Shown here piece by piece: positions 340 through 59,526 of a stretch of 64,000 bases of DNA. Numbering within the stretch: the stretch's first letter is position 1; every line of letters starts with the position of its first letter. Position numbers and translations under genes: made by a program. Origin of the DNA: Patescibacteria group bacterium (lineage in GTDB: Bacteria; Patescibacteriota; Minisyncoccia; Phycocordibacterales; SIBU01); contig JAZJZC010000004.1 of the NCBI GenBank assembly GCA_040390045.1, positions 67,157 to 131,156 on the forward strand, read 5' to 3'. The notes beneath the pieces were generated by a model, which did no database searches, was not told where the DNA came from, and saw only the letters and a program-made list of their open reading frames with translations.

Positions 340-375
340 AATGCCCCGCGCCTCTGGCGCGGGGCATTCTTTTTA
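340..375 (+). terminator. rho-independent terminator
   Basis: GC hairpin aatgccccgcgcc-tctg-gcgcggggcatt followed by a T-run. Confidence 0.75.
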
Positions 376-1273: not shown

Positions 1274-2266
1274 ATGAATCGTTATTTGAAAATTTTGATG
1301 GTCGGAGTTGTCATTGCTGGCATGGGGTATGTTTTTCGCGCACCGATTGAAAAAACCATTGGCCCGATTGTAACCCCAATATACGAGCGATCAGTGGAAA
1401 ATTTTAATTTCCTTTTTTCCCAAATTAGAAATTACTTCACGCCTTGTTCCTCTCCAATTGCCTACAAGCTCGATAGCTTCAGTACCAAGTTTGGAATTTC
1501 TAAAACCTATTTTTTAAGCGCCATGGCAGATGCTGAGGCCATTTGGGAAAAACCTTTCGGCCGACAATTATTTACCTATGCGCCAGAAGGAGGAGTACTC
1601 AAAGTAAATTTAATTTACGATTACCGCCAACAAACCACGGCCAATTTAAGCACACTCGATGTTGTTGTAAAAAACAACAAGGCTTCCTATGACGATTTGG
1701 TTGCCAAGTTAGCAACTTTAAAATCTCAGTATCAGACTAAGAAAGATGCATTTGACGCGGCAGTTAGTGCCTATGAAACTAATGCCGATGAATATCACCA
1801 GGAAGTTTCAATGTGGAATGCAAAAGGCGGTGCGCCGAAATCTGAATACGATAAGCTTCAGGCAACTCGCGTATCCTTACAAAATCAATCAGCGCAACTT
1901 CAGGTGATGCAAAACGCGGTTAATGAATTGGTCAACCAAATTAACTCTTTGGTGCTCACAATCAACAGGCTCGGCGCTAGTCTCAATTTAACCGTTGATC
2001 AATACAATACAGTTGGAGCAACGAGAGGCGAAACATTTGAGGAAGGTTTGTATCAAAGCAGTGCGGCCGGATCGGAAATTGATATTTACGAATTTAGTAG
2101 CCGAAATAAACTAGTGAGAGTTTTGGCGCACGAGCTTGGACACGCGCTTGGTCTTGATCATGTGAATGATCCCGAAGCCATTATGTATAAATTAAATAAT
2201 GGTTCGAGTTTGGCTTTAACTAAAGCGGATTTAGCGGCGCTCAATACAAGGTGTAGGGTGAAGTGA
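1274..2266 (+). CDS. zinc metalloprotease, matrixin/metzincin-like
   Basis: HELGHALGLDH = HExxHxxGxxH zinc-binding motif. N-terminal TM helix and a coiled-coil middle. Internal ATG at 1274 chosen over the overlapping upstream extension. Confidence 0.65.
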   Translation: MNRYLKILMVGVVIAGMGYVFRAPIEKTIGPIVTPIYERSVENFNFLFSQIRNYFTPCSSPIAYKLDSFSTKFGISKTYFLSAMADAEAIWEKPFGRQLFTYAPEGGVLKVNLIYDYRQQTTANLSTLDVVVKNNKASYDDLVAKLATLKSQYQTKKDAFDAAVSAYETNADEYHQEVSMWNAKGGAPKSEYDKLQATRVSLQNQSAQLQVMQNAVNELVNQINSLVLTINRLGASLNLTVDQYNTVGATRGETFEEGLYQSSAAGSEIDIYEFSSRNKLVRVLAHELGHALGLDHVNDPEAIMYKLNNGSSLALTKADLAALNTRCRVK

Positions 2267-2310
2267 AAGGAGGGGAAGGTTTTAGGGGTTAGGGTTTAGT
2301 AAACAAAAGT

Positions 2311-2350
2311 AAAAAGCCCGCAAAATTTTTCCGAAAAATTTTGCGGGCTC
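2311..2350. terminator. bidirectional terminator hairpin
   Basis: gcccgcaaaattttt / aaaaattttgcgggc inverted repeat between convergent genes. Confidence 0.7.
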
Positions 2351-7662: not shown

Positions 7663-8055
7663 ATGCTCTCCGAAGATAAAATTGATTACCTACTCCAAAT
7701 TCGGGATTCGAAACCGGGATTGAGACCTGAGACCGTGAAAGTTATTTTGCGTGCGTTACGATGGGACGAAGATGAAATTGCAAGGGGATTGGAATTTTTG
7801 AAAAGGCCAGCGCCATCTGTAGCTGCGGCAGTTCCGACTCCCGTGGAACTTGCTGAGTCTGATGAGGAAGTTCCCGATGAACCGAAACCCATTGTCATTA
7901 AACAAAACCCATTTCCACTTGGCGCACCGCACCATAAATTAGTAGCACAAAGAAAAGAAAACCGTCACAATCATCATGTGTTGGCCGGATTTGTTTTTGG
8001 AGCAATTGTCATAACTTCGTTTTTGATTTGGTACGGGTACTATTATGCCAACTAA
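7663..8055 (+). CDS. hypothetical protein with C-terminal TM anchor
   Basis: ORF with acidic/Pro-rich middle and a hydrophobic C-terminus. Confidence 0.4.
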   Translation: MLSEDKIDYLLQIRDSKPGLRPETVKVILRALRWDEDEIARGLEFLKRPAPSVAAAVPTPVELAESDEEVPDEPKPIVIKQNPFPLGAPHHKLVAQRKENRHNHHVLAGFVFGAIVITSFLIWYGYYYAN

Positions 8056-8890
8056 AGATAAGTACAGCGCCGTTTGGGTTTCGCATTCCTCAATGGGGGA
8101 TTTTTTGAAATGCCCGCGAGCCTATTATTTGCATAATGTTTTTAAGCATCCGAAAACTGGCAAGAAAATAAATATTATTAATCCCGCGCTGGCGCTCGGC
8201 CAGATTGTCCACGAGATTGTTGAAGGTTTGGGAGAATTTAAAGTTGAAGAGCGTTTTAATCGGCCGCTTCTTGAAATGTATGACAAGGCATGGGAAAAAA
8301 TTTCTGGAAAACGCGGTGGATTTAAAAGTGTAGAAGAGGAGAAAGAAGCCAAAGCTCGTGGCAGAGCGATGGTAGAGAGGGTTATTAAAAATCCTGGGCC
8401 ACTAGCAAATAAAACTGTTCATATTAAACCAGGCGCAAATGGCATGCCTCCAAATTTTTATTTATCAGAAGATGACAATATTATTCTGTGCGGAAAAATC
8501 GACTGGCTTGAGTACATTCCCGAAACTGACTCGGTTCGCTTAATTGATTTTAAAACAGGCAAACATGATGAAAGTGGTGACTCGCTACAACTTCCCATTT
8601 ATCATTTACTATTGAAACATTGCCAAAAGCGCCCGCTCGCCGGAGCAGCGTATTGGTATTTAGATCGCGATGATGTTCCGACGCCGGTTGACCTGCCTGA
8701 TTTAGAGAAAGGCAGAGAAGCGGTGCTCAAGGTTGCGCGCGAGGTCAAGGCGGCGCGTGATAAAAAAGAATTTAATTGTCCACGTGGTGAGAAGGGTTGT
8801 TTTGCCTGTCAGCCATTCGAAAAAATTGTGCGAGGTGAGGCGGAATTTATTGGGACTGGAGAATACAATCAGGATATCTACGTTGTGTAG
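8045..8890 (+). CDS. PD-(D/E)XK nuclease, Cas4/AddB-like with 4-Cys cluster
   Basis: N-terminal Cys (FLKCPRAYY), D...IDFKTGK (D/ExK) core, C-terminal CPRGEKGCFAC. Confidence 0.7.
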   Translation: MPTKDKYSAVWVSHSSMGDFLKCPRAYYLHNVFKHPKTGKKINIINPALALGQIVHEIVEGLGEFKVEERFNRPLLEMYDKAWEKISGKRGGFKSVEEEKEAKARGRAMVERVIKNPGPLANKTVHIKPGANGMPPNFYLSEDDNIILCGKIDWLEYIPETDSVRLIDFKTGKHDESGDSLQLPIYHLLLKHCQKRPLAGAAYWYLDRDDVPTPVDLPDLEKGREAVLKVAREVKAARDKKEFNCPRGEKGCFACQPFEKIVRGEAEFIGTGEYNQDIYVV

Positions 8891-8952
8891 ACCTGCCCGC
8901 TTTACCTGCCGGCAATCGGGCGGCCAAACAGGTTTAAGATTTCAAGAGTCCA

Positions 8953-8979
8953 TTTAACCATTCGCTCGAAAGGTTAAAT
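8953..8979. repeat. 27-bp palindromic element tttaaccattcgctcgaaaggttaaat, solo copy
   Basis: Identical to 26365-26391. Inverted partial copy at 26049-26068. Confidence 0.8.
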
Positions 8980-9124
8980 AGGAATTTATTCTACTATTTA
9001 TGGTAAGGAACCAATAAAAGTTAGATTTTGACATTTTTTACAGAAACGCTAAGCTTCATTTTAGAAAGATACCAAGTGTACTTGGTTTGAAACGAAGTAA
9101 ACAAAACTCAGTAAGGATCACTGT

Positions 9125-15910: not shown

Positions 15911-16813
15911 ATGGCTAACAGGCACCTTGCAAGATCGACAGTTCTACAAACCCTCTTCGAGTGGGATTTTAATGGTCAGCGAAAGACTGACGATGTAGAA
16001 ACGATTCTCAAGAGAGATATCGCCGAATTTGCTCCTGGCGTTAGTGATTCGTCGTTCATGACTGAGCTCCTCCGTTCTATTTGCGACAAGATGTCGGACA
16101 TTGATACGATTATTGAAAAGGCTGCTCCAGATTGGCCAATCAATAAAATTTCTATTATCGATCGCAACATCTTGCGCATCGGTCTTTACGAATTGCTTTT
16201 TGCGGACAAAACTGAAGTGCCGGAAAAAGTGGCGATCAATGAAGCGATTGAGTTGGCGAAAACATTCGGCGGCGAAAATAGCGGCAAATTTGTAAACGGC
16301 GTTCTTGGTTCAGTCTACAAAGAACTTGGAGAGCCCGGCAAAGATGCTGTTTCCCAGAAGAGTAAACGCAAAGCTGAAGTTCCGTACGAAAAAATGCCTA
16401 TCCAAAAATTGGGAGGCGCAGTGGTCTATGCTAAGGATGGTGGTGAAATTTATCTCGCGCTTGTCCACGATATTTTCGGTCATTGGACGCTCTCAAAAGG
16501 AAAAATTGAAGTTGATGAGGACGTTAAGCAAGGTACGACGAGAGAAATGAAGGAAGAACTTGGCCTCGATGTTTCGATTCAAACAGATCTTGGAAAAAAT
16601 GAATACATCGCATCCGATCCAACTCTTGGTAAAATTCGCAAACAAGTAAATTACTTTTTGGCAGAAGCCAAGTATGAAAATTTAACTCTTGGTACTTCAG
16701 GTGGACTCGACGACGCACGATGGTACAAAATGGCGGATATTGTTTCTCTTAATTTGTACAATGACATTTTGCCAATCGTCACCAAAGCGGTCAATATATT
16801 ACTTAAAAAGTAG
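15911..16813 (+). CDS. nusB: NusB antitermination factor fused to C-terminal NUDIX hydrolase domain
   Basis: NusB motifs DRNILRIGLYELLF and INEAIELAKTFGGENSGKFVNGVLG. Canonical Nudix box GKIEVDEDVKQGTTREMKEELGL. Confidence 0.8.
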   Translation: MANRHLARSTVLQTLFEWDFNGQRKTDDVETILKRDIAEFAPGVSDSSFMTELLRSICDKMSDIDTIIEKAAPDWPINKISIIDRNILRIGLYELLFADKTEVPEKVAINEAIELAKTFGGENSGKFVNGVLGSVYKELGEPGKDAVSQKSKRKAEVPYEKMPIQKLGGAVVYAKDGGEIYLALVHDIFGHWTLSKGKIEVDEDVKQGTTREMKEELGLDVSIQTDLGKNEYIASDPTLGKIRKQVNYFLAEAKYENLTLGTSGGLDDARWYKMADIVSLNLYNDILPIVTKAVNILLKK

Positions 16814-16894
16814 ATAGTCGGTAGTCAGTAGTTTGTAGAAAATCCGTTTTTCCTTACTACCAACTACCCACTACAATACTAACCTACTACTCCA
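16814..16894. repeat. GTAG/CTAC-rich palindromic intergenic repeat
   Basis: tagatagtcggtagtcagtagtttgtag ... ctaccaactacccactac forms a long imperfect inverted repeat. Same family at 287-320 and 28817-28935. Confidence 0.6.
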
Positions 16895-17584
16895 ATGGAT
16901 TTTTCAAAATTCGAAGACCAACTCGGTATTTATTTCAAAAACAAAAGTCTTTTACAGACGGCTTTTACGCATAGATCATATATCAACGAAAACCGAAAAG
17001 GTGCGCTTGAACACAACGAACGCCTGGAGTTTTTGGGCGACGCTGTCTTAGAGTTGATCGCGACGCATTTTTTGTATAACAAATATCCTGACAAAGCAGA
17101 AGGGGATTTGACGTCCTACCGTTCTGCGCTTGTTAACGCCGTGACACTTTCTGAAATTGCCACGAAACTCGGCATGAATGAATTTCTTCTTTTATCAAAA
17201 GGGGAAACCAAGGATACTGGCCGCGCTCGACAATATATTTTGGCAAACACTATGGAATCTTTTATTGGCGCCCTGTTTCTCGATCAAGGATATGACGCGG
17301 CACAAGTATTTATAAAACAATACATTCTCTCGCTCATCGACAACATTGTTGCCAAAAAAAGTTGGCTTGACGCAAAAAGTTTTTTTCAGGAAAAAGCTCA
17401 GGAAGAAGAGGGAATTACTCCGTCTTATGTAGTACTTAAAGAAACTGGTCCCGATCACGATAAACAATTTACGGTTGCAGTAGAAATTGGTCGCGAACGT
17501 GTTGCCACAGGCGAGGGAAAATCAAAACAAGAAGCTGAACAGAGTGCGGCACAGGAGGGACTGAAAGCCAAGAGTTGGAATTAG
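16895..17584 (+). CDS. rnc: ribonuclease III
   Basis: ERLEFLGDAVLE signature and a C-terminal dsRBD. Confidence 0.9.
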   Translation: MDFSKFEDQLGIYFKNKSLLQTAFTHRSYINENRKGALEHNERLEFLGDAVLELIATHFLYNKYPDKAEGDLTSYRSALVNAVTLSEIATKLGMNEFLLLSKGETKDTGRARQYILANTMESFIGALFLDQGYDAAQVFIKQYILSLIDNIVAKKSWLDAKSFFQEKAQEEEGITPSYVVLKETGPDHDKQFTVAVEIGRERVATGEGKSKQEAEQSAAQEGLKAKSWN

Positions 17585-23925: not shown

Positions 23926-23955
23926 CCGGTAGATTCAAGAATAAAACCAAAAAAA

Positions 23956-23991
23956 ATACCGCCGCGACTCCGTCGCGGCGGTATTTTTTTT
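23956..23991 (+). terminator. rho-independent terminator
   Basis: aataccgccgcgac-tcc-gtcgcggcggtatt followed by T8. Confidence 0.8.
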
Positions 23992-25210: not shown

Positions 25211-25266
25211 TTTTGCTGTTTTTTCTTGCCTTTTTTGCCTAAACCCTATACCCTAAACGTCACATC

Positions 25267-25995
25267 ATGACTTTCCACTTCATAACCCTATTCCCACACG
25301 CTTTCGACTCCTATCTCGGGGAGTCGATTTTGAAACGTGCAATTGAAGACAAAAAAATAAAAGTAAAGTTTTATAATCCTCGAGATTTTGCAGAAAACAA
25401 ACACGATCGAATAGACCGAAAACCATACGGTGGAGGCCCAGGTATGGTAATTCAAGCTGAACCGGTAATTCGCGCGATTGAAAAAGCGTTGATGACAGCA
25501 GGGTATAGGGTAGAGGGTAAAGGGTATAGACGAATTAAAAGTAGTAAAAAACTAAACCCTAAAACTTACACCCTTAACCCTGTGATAGTCTGGCTCAGTC
25601 CTTCCGGCAAACAATTTACCAATGAGTACGCTAAAAAAGTAGCGGGAAAGTTTGTGGACATTATTATTATCTGTGGCCGATATGAAGGAATCGATGCCCG
25701 AGTTAAAAAAGTTTTCAAAGTTGAAGAACTTTCAGTCGGACCATTTGTGCTCACTGGTGGGGAATTGCCGGCGATGCTTATGATCGATGTGATCTCACGA
25801 CAAATTCCAGGGATACTCGGTGATTTTAATTCTCTCGAGGAATCTCGCGTTGCCAGCCCAGATGTGTATACGCGGCCAGTAATTTTTAAATTTAAAGGAA
25901 AGAATTTTCGTGTTCCGAAAATTCTTCTTTCAGGTCACGCTGCCAAAATTAAGGAGTGGAAAGAATCAAAAATTAAAACAAAACCAAATAAGTAA
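25267..25995 (+). CDS. trmD: tRNA (guanine37-N1)-methyltransferase
   Basis: FITLFPHAF, RPYGGGPGMV, SPQG-like and GRYEGID motifs. Carries a roughly 20-aa in-frame insertion relative to E. coli TrmD. Confidence 0.9.
   Translation: MTFHFITLFPHAFDSYLGESILKRAIEDKKIKVKFYNPRDFAENKHDRIDRKPYGGGPGMVIQAEPVIRAIEKALMTAGYRVEGKGYRRIKSSKKLNPKTYTLNPVIVWLSPSGKQFTNEYAKKVAGKFVDIIIICGRYEGIDARVKKVFKVEELSVGPFVLTGGELPAMLMIDVISRQIPGILGDFNSLEESRVASPDVYTRPVIFKFKGKNFRVPKILLSGHAAKIKEWKESKIKTKPNK
25498..25583. repeat. TIR-bearing TAGGGT-repeat element inserted in-frame within trmD
   Basis: Left arm cagggtatagggtagagggtaaagggtat. Right arm aaaccctaaaacttacacccttaaccctg (terminal cagggt/accctg). Encodes an extra loop MTAGYRVEGKGYRRIKSSKKLNPKTYTLNP. 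Confidence 0.6.
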
Positions 25996-26045
25996 CCCCC
26001 CCCCCCCGTCTTTTTCGCCACACTACTTTAAAAATAAACAGTACC

Positions 26046-26073
26046 TTGTAACCTTTCGAGCGAATGGTATAAT
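26046..26073 (+). promoter_or_regulatory. sigma70-like promoter of arsR-family gene overlapped by inverted copy of the 27-bp element
   Basis: TTGTAA-16-TATAAT. Element copy taacctttcgagcgaatggt at 26049-26068 sits between -35 and -10. ATG follows 7 nt after -10. Confidence 0.5.
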
Positions 26074-26079
26074 GCTTTG

Positions 26080-26349
26080 ATGAGTGATTTTAAAAAATTG
26101 GAAAAGTTGCTAAAGGTTGCTGGCAACCAAAGACGACTCGCAATACTTGCGTACCTCAAAAAAGTAAGAGTGTCATCTGTTGGAAAAATTTCTGAAAATC
26201 TTAATATGTCATATCACGCCGCCTCGAAGCATTTGCGCTTGTTGCTGAACGCTGAGTTGCTCGATCGCGAACAGAAAAAATTTGAGGCTCACTATACACT
26301 TTCAAAAAATCAGCATAGACTCGTTAGTAATTTACTGGAGCTACTTTAG
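26080..26349 (+). CDS. ArsR/SmtB-family HTH transcriptional regulator
   Basis: RRLAILAYLKK...VGKISENLNMSYHAASKHLRLL winged-HTH pattern. Confidence 0.7.
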   Translation: MSDFKKLEKLLKVAGNQRRLAILAYLKKVRVSSVGKISENLNMSYHAASKHLRLLLNAELLDREQKKFEAHYTLSKNQHRLVSNLLELL

Positions 26350-26364
26350 ACCCAACCTCACTTA

Positions 26365-26391
26365 TTTAACCATTCGCTCGAAAGGTTAAAT
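26365..26391. repeat. 27-bp palindromic element tttaaccattcgctcgaaaggttaaat
   Basis: Identical to 8953-8979. Inverted relative to 26049-26068. Confidence 0.8.
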
Positions 26392-26431
26392 GAGAATAAA
26401 ACAACTTTTTAACTAAATCCGTACTTAATTT

Positions 26432-27118
26432 CTATCTGATTTCGTAAATCACATCTTTTCGCTCAACCACAATTTTCCAGCCATTCATTTTAGCAAAACG
26501 GTACAGCGCTTGGTTTGGATTAAAACAAATTGGATTTTCCACCAGTTCGAGCATTGGAATATCACCCTCGGTGTCACCAATTCCGTAAGAACCCTTCAAT
26601 GTTAAATTTTCCTTGGCAACTGCACGACGGACAATGTTGGCTTTGTTTGCAATAAGATGAAGGTCAACGACTTCACCGGTAAATTTATCTGACGGGCCAA
26701 GTTCATAAAATCTCCCGTACACTTTATTAAATCCCAGTCGTTTACAAAAAGCGTCGAGCAATCCTTTTGGTGACTGAGACACTGCAAGCAAAAAATAACC
26801 TTTTCGTTTTAATTTCTTAACGAGGTCGCGCGTATAGCGATACATTTTATTTTTATTGGCCTCAACCACCGCAAGACCGATTTTTTCAAACTCATGGTAG
26901 TCCACACCCTTGAGATATTTCATAAATGTGTCGATAATGGCCTGGATGTAGTCCTCATAACTTCCTTCTCGGTTAGTCCAGCGCTCAAATTGTAATTGAT
27001 ACAACGCCCGGCTTTTTTTGGGGAAAACGCCTTCGTCAATCAGGGCTTCAACCAATTCGATTAGTAAACTTGAACGAAAAATTGTTCCATCAATATCGAA
27101 AACTGCGACTTTTTTCAT
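26432..27118 (-). CDS. HAD-superfamily hydrolase
   Basis: Motif I VFDIDGTI and a C-terminal GDTEGD. Confidence 0.75.
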   Translation of the reverse strand: MKKVAVFDIDGTIFRSSLLIELVEALIDEGVFPKKSRALYQLQFERWTNREGSYEDYIQAIIDTFMKYLKGVDYHEFEKIGLAVVEANKNKMYRYTRDLVKKLKRKGYFLLAVSQSPKGLLDAFCKRLGFNKVYGRFYELGPSDKFTGEVVDLHLIANKANIVRRAVAKENLTLKGSYGIGDTEGDIPMLELVENPICFNPNQALYRFAKMNGWKIVVERKDVIYEIR

Positions 27119-28816: not shown

Positions 28817-28935
28817 GGGAGAGAGTAGATAGTCGGTAGATGGTAGTAGGTAGACCAGATTAAAGAAACCCCCGGCGCGCTTTGCGCGCCGGGGGTTTCA
28901 ACAAGTCTACCCACTACCCACTAATTACTACTTTC
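28817..28935. repeat. GTAG/CTAC palindromic repeat enclosing a terminator hairpin
   Basis: tagatagtcggtagatggtagtaggtagac ... terminator ... gtctacccactacccactaattactac. Inner hairpin aaacccccggcgcgc-tttg-cgcgccgggggttt at 28866-28898. Confidence 0.7.
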
Positions 28936-59485: not shown

Positions 59486-59526
59486 ATAACTAAAGCCCCG
59501 CGCCAAAGGCGCGGGGCTTTAGTTAT
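59486..59526. terminator. strong bidirectional terminator hairpin
   Basis: ataactaaagccccgcgcc-aaa-ggcgcggggctttagttat. Confidence 0.75.

What the first reader, a model, noticed from the sequence alone, without database searches (positions are those of the whole stretch)
26046..26391. 27-bp palindromic element flanks an arsR-family gene in inverted orientation; identical solo copy at 8953-8979
tttaaccattcgctcgaaaggttaaat occurs identically at 26365-26391 and 8953-8979. An inverted partial copy (26049-26068) sits between the -35 and -10 of the arsR-family gene promoter. Two readings are possible. (a) It is the operator of the ArsR-like repressor: autoregulatory at its own promoter, with a second target site upstream of purD. 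(b) It is the terminal inverted repeat of a tiny cassette carrying the regulator. In reading (b) the 12-C homopolymer at 25996-26007 just upstream would be part of the junction.
Basis: seen in the sequence. Interest (0 to 1): 0.5.

Follow-up and report, generated by a model that had tools for sequence, protein, structure and literature searches.

The report
Repressor binding sites bracketing its gene
The repeated 28-base palindrome is most likely the DNA site bound by the small ArsR-type repressor encoded between two of its copies, and having one site in the promoter and one at the gene's end turns out to be conserved across a large family of these regulators in ultra-small (Patescibacteria) bacteria.

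Summary
A 28-bp near-palindrome, ATTTAACCATTCG-CT-CGAAAGGTTAAAT, occurs identically at 8952-8979 and 26364-26391. A third, inverted copy (24/28 identity) at 26046-26073 is the promoter of the arsR-like gene: its four changed end bases create TTGTAA-N16-TATAAT, and the ATG follows 6 nt later.

All 11 independent homologous loci I could fetch carry a palindrome with the same core (TTC-N4-GAA, usually ATTCGCGCGAAT) at both ends of the gene, one near the start and one at the 3' end. In typical family members the 3' copy overlaps the stop codon and encodes the C-terminal tail SNSRE; 85 of 120 listed homologs end this way. In this window the 3' copy is non-coding. Sites resemble each other more within a gene than between genomes.

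Best reading: these are the cognate operators of a non-metal-sensing ArsR/SmtB-fold autorepressor. O1 sits in the promoter, O2 is a conserved auxiliary site, and there is one solo site. The role of O2 here is inferred, since the next gene is convergent. The cassette reading is weak: there is no transposase and no target duplication. However, arsR is present or absent at the trmD|HAD junction among close relatives. No binding was tested. Verdict: a new variant of a known kind.

The parts
26046..26073 (+). O1: inverted copy of the palindrome (24/28) fused to the arsR promoter. -35 TTGTAA at 26046-26051, core TTCGAGCGAA at 26055-26064, extended -10 TGgTATAAT at 26065-26073.
   Evidence: (I8, I12). 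The four bases that differ from the full copy are the ones that create the -35 and -10 hexamers.
26080..26349 (+). arsR-like gene, 89 aa. ArsR/SmtB-fold winged helix with no Cys and no alpha-5 metal site. The ATG lies 6 nt after the -10, so the mRNA is probably leaderless.
   Evidence: Pfam HTH_5. Identical NCBI protein named 'helix-turn-helix transcriptional regulator [Patescibacteria group bacterium]'. PDB sequence hits HlyU, AspA and CzrA. AF2 model pLDDT 89, Foldseek TM about 0.84 to HlyU, CadC, PagR, CzrA.
26364..26391 (.). O2: full 28-bp palindrome. It starts 15 nt after the arsR stop codon (26347-26349) and ends 40 nt before the stop of the convergent HAD hydrolase gene (26432-27118, minus strand).
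   Evidence: A 3'-end copy is present in all 11 homologous loci.
8952..8979 (.). Solo copy, 28/28 identical to O2 and in the same orientation. It lies 61 nt after the stop of a PD-(D/E)XK nuclease gene (8045-8890) and 145 nt before the purD ATG (9125).

Best explanation
The 28-bp dyad is the cognate binding site (operator) of the small ArsR/SmtB-fold protein encoded at 26080-26349.

Shown from sequence:
- O1 occupies the spacer and both hexamers of the gene's own promoter.
- The ATG follows the -10 by 6 nt.
- A second copy (O2) lies just past the stop codon, and one solo copy lies 17 kb away.
- The arrangement 'site in the promoter plus site at the 3' end' is conserved in every homolog locus examined across Parcubacteria.
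- Sites co-vary with their own gene.

Inferred:
- A protein dimer bound at O1 blocks RNA polymerase, giving negative autoregulation of a probably leaderless transcript.
- O2 is an auxiliary operator. Where the next gene is co-directional, O2 sits at that gene's promoter or at the junction and couples it to the repressor. Examples are tyrS/aspS and a murD-like gene; in L014, O2 is a 24-bp duplicate of O1 that includes TGGTAGAAT.
- In this window and its Taylorbacteria relatives the next gene is convergent and O2 has no usable -10. There it most likely acts as a bound-protein roadblock, as a loop anchor with O1 (318 bp apart), or both. This would insulate arsR from, and stop, convergent transcription. 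No canonical terminator exists in that gap.
- The solo site is a further low-copy target, possibly a roadblock between the nuclease gene and purD rather than a classical purD operator.

The effector is unknown. The protein lacks the family's metal and thiol ligands.
For: 1. O1 coincides with the promoter.
2. A metagenome scan with the degenerate dyad returned only 3 loci. Two of them (the same sequence) carry the perfect palindrome ATTTAACCTTTCGTACGAAAGGTTAAAT 13 nt upstream of an ArsR-like gene that is only 31% identical.
3. All 11 independent homolog loci have the core at both gene ends. The background frequency of TTCGNNCGAA in the same loci is roughly 1 per 35-40 kb.
4. In 4 of 4 inspected SNSRE-tailed genes, O2 overlaps the stop codon and encodes SNSRE (TCT AAT TCG CGC GAA TAA). 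85 of 120 listed homologs end in SNSRE. Tail-less proteins, including this one, keep O2 in non-coding DNA. Selection therefore acts on the DNA site, not on the peptide.
5. Sites agree at 24/28 within a locus but 17.3/28 between loci. Two paralogs on one contig (L005) have different arm types, each shared by its own O1 and O2.
6. Dyad symmetry of the arms is kept by two-sided changes: 77 cells against 29.8 +/- 5.4 in shuffles (0 of 500), and 79% paired against 37-49% when the partner is slid.
7. O2 is retained in a convergent, non-coding context in three diverged Taylorbacteria lineages: window, L026 and L031. In L026 only the 12-bp core is kept and the arms are not complementary, which favours a protein site over a hairpin.
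8. The protein has the ArsR/SmtB fold, and the recognition helix LSFxSTSKHL is nearly invariant, matching the invariant core.
Against: No binding or expression data exist; everything is comparative.

Conserved half-sites only about 7 bp apart (ATTCG/CGAAT) are unusually close for a winged-helix dimer. Long arms of up to 15 bp exceed a normal footprint in some lineages.

Exact identity of O2 and the solo copy at the non-symmetric positions suggests recent copying rather than independent selection. So does the inverted relation of O1 and O2 in both lineages with an asymmetric centre (window and L031).

The function of O2 between convergent genes is not explained by any demonstrated mechanism. 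The solo site is not at a recognisable promoter.
Confidence: 0.75

Rival explanations
1. Mobile or duplicative cassette. The unit [palindrome-arsR-palindrome] would move or be gained and lost as a block with the palindromes as its ends, and solo copies would be footprints or copies spread by a copy-paste process.
For: Among close relatives (MetK 83-90% identical) the trmD|HAD junction is variable:
- It is empty in L023/24/25 and L029.
- It holds arsR in the window and L031.
- It holds arsR plus an MFS gene in L026.
- It holds an unrelated 511-bp filler in L032/33.

Copies within a genome are near-identical even at non-symmetric positions. O1 is the reverse complement of O2 in both the window and L031. 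A 38-bp perfect copy lies inside an Mpg-like ORF in L006.
Against: There is no transposase, recombinase or other mobility gene in the unit, and no target-site duplication at O1/O2 or at the solo copy. The empty sites carry no remnant palindrome.

The ortholog sits at the same trmD-proximal position in three lineages with only 49-50% protein identity. That points to old residence followed by losses.

In other Parcubacteria the gene lies in conserved synteny with efp or with tyrS-aspS-scpAB-dacB-mraY. Many O1 and O2 sites conserve only the 12-bp core and lack repeat-like arms.
Confidence: 0.1
2. A nucleic-acid structure independent of the protein: a hairpin acting as transcription terminator or mRNA 3' stabiliser, or a REP-like extragenic palindrome.
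For: The + strand RNA across O2 folds to -14.1 kcal/mol, z = -3.8. O2 and the solo copies lie shortly after stop codons. No canonical terminator is called between arsR and HAD. The empty-site relative L029 has a canonical bidirectional terminator at that spot. The arms co-vary like a stem.
Against: - No U-tract follows the hairpin.
- The same genome uses canonical GC-rich terminators (D6/I3).
- O1 lies in the untranscribed promoter spacer yet carries the same palindrome.
- L026 O2 and the L014 and L018 sites keep only the core and would form almost no stem.
- There is no strand-specific G-T excess: GT/TG 22 against AC/CA 17.
- Only 3 copies occur in 64 kb, and 0-1 solo copies per about 20 kb in related loci. 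That is far below REP densities.
- The minus-strand fold is not better than shuffles, z = -0.97.
Confidence: 0.07
3. Centromere-like or chromosome-organising sites. The ArsR-fold protein would act like archaeal AspA, or like ParB/parS: it would load at a few palindromes, one next to or inside its own gene, rather than act as a signal-responsive repressor.
For: AspA, the pNOB8 centromere-binding protein, appears among the PDB sequence hits (E about 1e-3) and the fold hits. The sites are low in copy number and long. The protein has no recognisable sensor residues.
Against: The similarity to AspA is no better than to generic ArsR repressors; HlyU, CadC and CzrA score higher. No parA/parB-like partner is adjacent. 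O1 is fused precisely to -35/-10 elements in many lineages, which is the signature of a transcriptional operator.
Confidence: 0.05

Closest known systems
Autoregulatory operators of ArsR/SmtB-family repressors (12-2-12 inverted repeats of SmtB, CzrA, CadC; non-metal members HlyU, NolR, PagR, BigR)
   Same: A small ArsR/SmtB-fold protein. A dyad operator of about 26-28 bp (13-2-13 here) overlaps its own promoter. The implied mechanism is negative autoregulation.
   Different: - There are no metal or thiol ligands: zero Cys and no alpha-5 DxH...HxxE.
- The conserved core is a compact 12-bp ATTCGCGCGAAT, not the TGAA/TTCA-type half-sites recalled from memory.
- A second operator at the 3' end of the gene is conserved family-wide and often overlaps the stop codon and encodes the C-terminal tail.
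- The family appears restricted to Patescibacteria/Parcubacteria among the hits seen.
Auxiliary operators and repressor roadblocks or loops (lac O2 inside lacZ, gal OI inside galE; CodY/CcpA roadblocks). From general knowledge.
   Same: A second copy of the operator lies a few hundred bp downstream of the promoter operator (288-464 bp here), partly inside coding sequence.
   Different: Here the auxiliary site brackets the regulator's own gene rather than lying in a regulated structural gene. Tetramerisation or looping is not known for ArsR-type proteins and was not tested.
REP elements flanking RAYT (REP-associated tyrosine transposase) genes
   Same: Short extragenic palindromes flank a gene in inverted orientation, with further solo copies elsewhere in the genome.
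   Different: The flanked gene encodes a winged-helix DNA binder, not an HUH/Y1 transposase. Copy number is low (3 per 64 kb). One copy is fused to the gene's promoter.
AspA / pNOB8 centromere, and parS sites in or near parB (spo0J)
   Same: An ArsR-fold protein (AspA) binds a palindrome next to its own gene, with few long palindromic sites per replicon.
   Different: No partition partners are adjacent, and the promoter fusion of O1 points to transcriptional control. Similarity to AspA is only family-level.

Membership tests
ArsR/SmtB family transcriptional repressor (protein) | Winged helix-turn-helix fold a1-a2-a3-aR-b1-b2-a5 | tested here: met
   Pfam HTH_5 28 bits against cut-off 22. PDB sequence hits HlyU and CzrA. 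AF2 model pLDDT 89 with helices 3-14, 17-29, 34-40, 45-57, strands 61-66 and 69-74, and helix 80-88. Foldseek TM 0.82-0.85 to HlyU, CadC, PagR, CzrA.
ArsR/SmtB family transcriptional repressor (protein) | Metal or metalloid sensing site (alpha-3N Cys motif ELCVCDL, or alpha-5 DxH...HxxE) | tested here: not met
   The protein has no cysteine. Its alpha-5 region NQHRLVSNLLELL has one His and no Asp/Glu ligand pattern. It therefore resembles the non-metal members (HlyU/NolR/PagR type).
ArsR/SmtB family transcriptional repressor (protein) | Homodimer binding a dyad-symmetric operator that overlaps the regulated promoter | tested here: inconclusive
   A dyad operator overlapping -35/-10 is present and conserved in homolog loci. 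Dimerisation and binding cannot be tested with these tools.
ArsR/SmtB family transcriptional repressor (protein) | Ligand-induced derepression | not testable with these tools
   No effector can be inferred from the sequence.
REP / RAYT system | The flanked gene encodes an IS200/IS605-like Y1 (HUH) transposase | tested here: not met
   The flanked gene is an 89-aa ArsR-fold protein.
REP / RAYT system | Tens to hundreds of extragenic copies per genome | tested here: inconclusive
   There are 3 copies in the 64-kb window and 0-1 solo copies per about 20 kb in related loci. The rest of this genome could not be fetched: the genome-contig scan found only 2 chance hits.
Transposon or MITE with terminal inverted repeats | Target-site duplication flanking the repeats, and a transposase (in cis or trans) | tested here: not met
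   No direct repeat abuts O1/O2 or the solo copy. No mobility gene lies in the unit or nearby. Presence/absence polymorphism does exist.
Intrinsic (Rho-independent) terminator | GC-rich stem-loop followed by a U-tract | tested here: not met
   Not called by the terminator scan at either full copy. The stem is AT-rich and no T-run follows it. Canonical GC-rich terminators exist elsewhere in the window (D6/I3).
Integron attC site | 57-141 bp with R''-L''/L'-R' arms and extrahelical bases, next to intI or in cassette arrays | tested here: not met
   The ends ATTTAAC/GTTAAAT fit RYYYAAC/GTTRRRY by eye. But the element is only 28 bp, the arms differ completely in homolog loci, and no integrase or array is present.

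The most novel reading that the evidence does not exclude
The palindrome and the regulator form a self-propagating module. The sites would be copied, not evolved in place, to both ends of the gene and to new loci, and the [site-gene-site] block would be gained and lost as a unit without any transposase. That would be a DNA-binding protein that carries and seeds its own binding sites.

Three observations fit this reading. Copies within a genome are identical at non-symmetric positions. O1 and O2 are inverted relative to each other in both the window and L031. The trmD|HAD junction is variable among close relatives.
Probability: 0.12. Interest if true: 0.75.

Novelty: new variant of a known kind. 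Interest (0 to 1): 0.5.

Why it matters
Almost nothing is known experimentally about transcriptional regulation in Patescibacteria (CPR). This work identifies a family-wide pairing of a small ArsR-fold regulator with a well-defined DNA motif, ATTCGCGCGAAT plus lineage-specific arms. The family comprises 363 word-index hits and 314 clusters at 50% identity.

The architecture is unusual and conserved. One operator is fused to a probably leaderless promoter. A second sits at the gene's end and in most members doubles as the last five codons and the stop codon. That gives a directly testable system (EMSA, reporter, roadblock and looping assays with synthetic DNA) in organisms that cannot be cultured.

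It is also a clear example of a DNA-level constraint writing a conserved protein tail. In several lineages it links the regulator to housekeeping genes (tyrS/aspS, a murD-like gene). For the window itself, the practical result is that the repeat is a regulatory site set, not a transposon end or a generic repeat.

Tried and rejected
- **Genome census.** The genome-contig scan with the 19-mer gave only two chance hits, in Moritella and Krumholzibacteriota. The source genome is not in that collection, so no genome-wide count was possible.
- **Viral contigs.** No match.
- **First protein search.** Searching with the window protein alone found only itself. A profile of three sequences was needed.
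- **Rfam.** Only two tRNAs in the window, and nothing at the palindromes or in the 145-nt stretch before purD.
- **Promoter at the solo copy.** None called. By eye, TTGACA(9028)-16-TAAGCT lies about 50 nt downstream and may be the purD promoter, but it fails the scan's criteria.
- **Terminator reading.** Rejected; see the membership test.
- **attC resemblance (RYYYAAC/GTTRRRY).** Rejected as coincidence of this lineage's arms.
- **Helical phasing of O1-O2 spacing.** Spacings of 288-464 bp show no common phase, which neither supports nor excludes looping.
- **Recognition-helix residue versus central dinucleotide (CG, TA or CT).** No clear correlation.
- **Literature.** No relevant paper for TTCGCGCGAA, for ISNSRE, for Patescibacteria+ArsR+operator, or for CPR TF motifs. 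The E2F site TTTCGCGCGAAA surfaced only as an analogy: a winged-helix dimer on a compact palindrome.
- **purD loci of relatives.** None could be obtained, so conservation of the solo site is untested.

Full report
**1. What is in the window**

No other match exists with up to 3 mismatches, and none of 100 shuffles reached two matches.
- With one more base the unit is 28 bp: ATTTAACC-A-TTCG-CT-CGAA-A-GGTTAAAT. This is a 13-2-13 dyad broken only at the central CT and at the two A's at +/-6.
- A degenerate dyad search (AACCNTTCGNNCGAANGGTT, up to 3 mismatches) finds exactly three sites. The third is at 26050-26069.
- That third copy is the reverse complement of the others over the 20-bp core. Over 28 bp (26046-26073) it matches at 24/28. 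The four differing bases, all at the ends, turn ATTTAA...TTAAAT into TTGTAA...TATAAT.
- The promoter scan calls exactly this as the only sigma-70-like promoter in 25900-26500: TTGTAA-16 nt-TATAAT, 10/12 matches, with TG before the -10.
- The ATG of the ArsR-like ORF (26080) follows the -10 by 6 nt, so the mRNA is probably leaderless. This is inferred from spacing.

The flanked ORF (26080-26349, 89 aa) hits Pfam HTH_5 above threshold. It is identical to an NCBI protein from a Patescibacteria MAG on a 137,955-bp contig.

O2 (26364-26391) starts 15 nt after the arsR stop codon and ends 40 nt before the stop of a convergent HAD-hydrolase gene (26432-27118, minus strand). The solo copy (8952-8979) lies 61 nt after a PD-(D/E)XK nuclease gene and 145 nt before purD.

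**2. Related sequences**

The source genome is not among the GTDB representatives. The 19-mer scan returned only two unrelated chance hits, and IMG/VR had none.

The metagenome scan with TTAACCNTTCGNNCGAANGGTTAA returned three loci.
- Two are the same sequence (L004/L005). They carry the perfect palindrome ATTTAACCTTTCGTACGAAAGGTTAAAT 13 nt upstream of a 91-aa ArsR-like gene that is only 31% identical to the window protein.
- The same contig holds a second paralog (38% identical). Its upstream region carries CTTTCTAATTCGCGCGAATAAGAAAG, which has the same TTCG-NN-CGAA core but different arms.

A profile of the three proteins retrieved 363 homologs at E<1e-5. They are about 91 aa long, and every source name in the listing places them in the Patescibacteria/Parcubacteria group (Taylor-, Lipton-, Zambryski-, Jorgensen-, Ryan- and Sungbacteria). 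An exhaustive HMMER search found 314 clusters at 50% identity.

**3. The family-wide architecture**

I fetched contigs for eight homologs and, through MetK, for close relatives of the window organism. All 11 independent arsR-like loci carry the palindrome core at both ends of the gene (table). The loci are the window, L026, L031, L005a, L005b, L007, L009, L012, L014, L018 and L022.
- **O1.** Its centre lies 20-55 nt before the ATG in ten of the loci and 133 nt before it in L022. In several lineages it is followed by TGG-TAnAAT, an extended -10. In the window, L026, L031 and L014, exactly 6 nt then separate the -10 from the ATG.
- **O2.** It lies at the 3' end. In L005a, L007, L009 and L012 it overlaps the stop codon, and the sequence TCT AAT TCG CGC GAA TAA encodes the tail SNSRE. 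85 of the 120 listed homologs end in SNSRE, with variants such as SNSSE, SNSLE and read-through SNSRELENS.
- **Tail-less proteins keep O2.** These include the window protein. O2 then sits immediately after the stop (L014, L018) or 28-75 nt downstream (window, L026, L031, L005b, L022).

The conserved object is therefore the DNA site, and the peptide tail is its by-product.

TTCGNNCGAA occurs elsewhere in the same loci only about once per 35-40 kb. Finding it in all about 22 short flanking windows is far beyond chance.

**4. Properties of the sites**

I aligned 26 sites.
- TTC and GAA are invariant, and the flanking A/T and G/C are nearly so.
- The centre is usually GCGC but is GCTC in the window, GTAC in L005b and L022, and GTGA/TCAC/GCAC in L031.
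- The arms differ between lineages but keep dyad symmetry through two-sided changes: 77 cells against 29.8 +/- 5.4 in shuffles (0 of 500), and 79% paired against 37-49% when the partner is slid.
- Sites of one gene resemble each other more (mean 24/28) than sites of different loci (17.3/28). The two paralogs in L005 each have their own arm type at both O1 and O2.
- Some sites (L014, L018, L026) keep only the 12-bp core and have no complementary arms.
- G-T "pairs" are not enriched over A-C (22 against 17), so nothing points to selection on an RNA strand.

**5. The protein**

Sequence search of the PDB finds HlyU, AspA and CzrA. An AlphaFold model (pLDDT 89) superposes on HlyU, CadC, PagR, CzrA and NolR at TM 0.82-0.85.

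The protein has no Cys and no alpha-5 ligand set, so it is not a metal or thiol sensor of the known types. The recognition helix LSFxSTSKHL is nearly invariant in the family. That matches the invariant DNA core.

**6. Mechanism**

Best supported: the palindromes are the cognate operators of this repressor, and O1 gives negative autoregulation by promoter occlusion.

O2 has two contexts.
- **Co-directional next gene.** O2 sits at that gene's promoter or junction (aspS in L005a, a murD-like gene in L007, tyrS/trpS in L014). In L014, O2 is a 24-bp duplicate of O1 that includes TGGTAGAAT, followed by a Shine-Dalgarno sequence and a start codon. There O2 most simply couples the downstream gene to the repressor.
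- **Convergent next gene.** This applies to the window, L026, L031 and L009. O2 has no usable -10: TTAAAT has T at the position where A is critical. Yet O2 is retained in non-coding DNA across lineages whose ArsR proteins are only 49-50% identical.

For the convergent case I infer a promoter-independent role. O2 may act as a protein roadblock between convergent transcription units, as a cooperative or looping partner of O1, or both. No canonical terminator lies in that gap. The relative that lacks arsR (L029) has a textbook bidirectional terminator there.

This step is inference. So is any role of the solo copy in purD control, because no promoter is called at it.

**7. The cassette reading**

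Relatives with 83-90% identical MetK show a variable trmD|HAD junction:
- trmD and HAD abut directly in L023/24/25;
- they are separated by a terminator in L029;
- they are separated by arsR in the window and L031;
- they are separated by arsR plus an MFS gene in L026;
- they are separated by an unrelated 511-bp GC-rich filler in L032/33.

Several points argue against a cassette, however.
- The unit has no mobility gene and no target duplication, and the empty sites keep no remnant.
- The ortholog occupies the same position in three deeply diverged lineages.
- In other Parcubacteria the gene lies in conserved synteny, near efp or upstream of tyrS-aspS-scpAB-dacB-mraY.
- The C12 tract directly follows the trmD stop and is absent from L026 and L031. 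An independent Logan assembly breaks exactly there and shows C13, so it is a homopolymer of uncertain length or an assembly join, not part of the conserved architecture.

What remains in favour of duplicative spread is the exact identity of copies at non-symmetric positions and the inverted relation of O1 and O2 in both asymmetric-centre lineages (window and L031). I give this rival about 0.1.

**8. Other rivals**

A terminator or REP-like hairpin is unlikely:
- the stem is AT-rich and has no U-tract;
- the genome has canonical GC-rich terminators;
- O1 lies in the untranscribed promoter spacer;
- several sites conserve only the core;
- the copy number is low.

An AspA/ParB-like centromere role cannot be excluded. 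It has only family-level similarity behind it and no partner genes.

**9. Comparison with the known, and novelty**

In kind this is an ArsR/SmtB-type autoregulatory operator. Two things are not described in anything I could search. One is the specific family-motif pair in Patescibacteria. The other is the conserved bracket of two operators around the regulator's own gene, with the distal one usually overlapping the stop codon and encoding the protein's tail.

I rate it a new variant of a known kind with interest 0.5. The window-level finding is an ordinary operator set. The family-level architecture is unexpected and directly testable. No binding, expression or looping was measured, and all functional statements rest on comparative sequence evidence.

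Noticed in passing
window 25996-26007; L003 1-13: The C12 homopolymer directly follows the trmD stop codon and is the only run of 9 or more C in the window. An independent Logan assembly of the same sample starts its contig exactly here with 13 C. The tract length is therefore uncertain, and the trmD-arsR join may be an assembly weak point (possibly a poly-G/C artefact) or a slippage-prone tract. It is absent from the orthologous loci L026 and L031.
   Followed up: partly
L006 1914-1951: A 38-bp perfect palindrome, TCCTTATTCTCTAATTCGCGCGAATTAGAGAATAAGGA, lies inside a 3-methyladenine-glycosylase-like ORF (1628-2260, minus strand). It encodes ...FSNSRELENK... in frame, the same SNSRE peptide as the ArsR tails. 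The segment between the LIRA and NGPG motifs is not obviously longer than usual, so it is unclear whether this is an insertion or a site evolved in place.
   Followed up: partly
L032 7812-7843; L006 4401-4438; L031 3865-3892: A second, different palindrome class built on ACATTCTnACATTCT....AGAATGTnAGAATGT. In L032 it sits right after trmD, in the slot that arsR occupies in relatives. In L006 it lies 70 bp from an ArsR-type palindrome. It may be the operator of another regulator.
   Followed up: no
L005 738-1013 and 3161-3436: Two paralogous arsR-like genes lie 2.1 kb apart on one contig. Each has its own arm type (TTTCTA or TTAACC) and its own centre (CG or TA) at both of its sites. This looks like insulated paralog-specific operator sets.
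   Followed up: partly
window 28824-28935 and 16809-16900: Imperfect inverted arrays of GTAG/GGTAG units (AGTAGATAGTCGGTAG...) face CTAC/CTACC units. At 28824-28935 they flank a canonical GC-rich terminator hairpin just after metK. A similar module lies at 16809-16900. This is a separate repeat family of unknown role.
   Followed up: no
window 340-368, 23949-23984, 59492-59520: Near-identical GC-rich hairpins (for example AATGCCCCGCGCC-TCTG-GCGCGGGGCATT) are flanked by A/T runs. They look like canonical bidirectional intrinsic terminators and show what terminators look like in this genome.
   Followed up: no
window 2281-2315 and 25223-25257: TTAGGG-like repeats (TTTAGGGGTTAGGGTTTAG and its complement CCTAAACCCTATACCCTAAA). 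The second copy lies just upstream of the trmD start (25267). Unexplained.
   Followed up: no
L007, L012, L014, L005 (whole loci): Typical family members sit in conserved synteny, near efp or LigT and upstream of tRNA-synt_1b (tyrS/trpS), aspS, scpA/scpB, a Peptidase_S11 gene and mraY. The regulator may be tied to housekeeping operons in many Parcubacteria.
   Followed up: partly
protein P0121: A 179-aa representative matches the 89-aa query in two stretches. It appears to be a tandem fusion of two ArsR-like domains, a possible single-chain 'dimer'.
   Followed up: no
window 9028-9055: TTGACA-16 nt-TAAGCT lies about 50 nt downstream of the solo palindrome and 70 nt upstream of the purD ATG. 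It is a candidate purD promoter by eye, but the scan did not call it.
   Followed up: no
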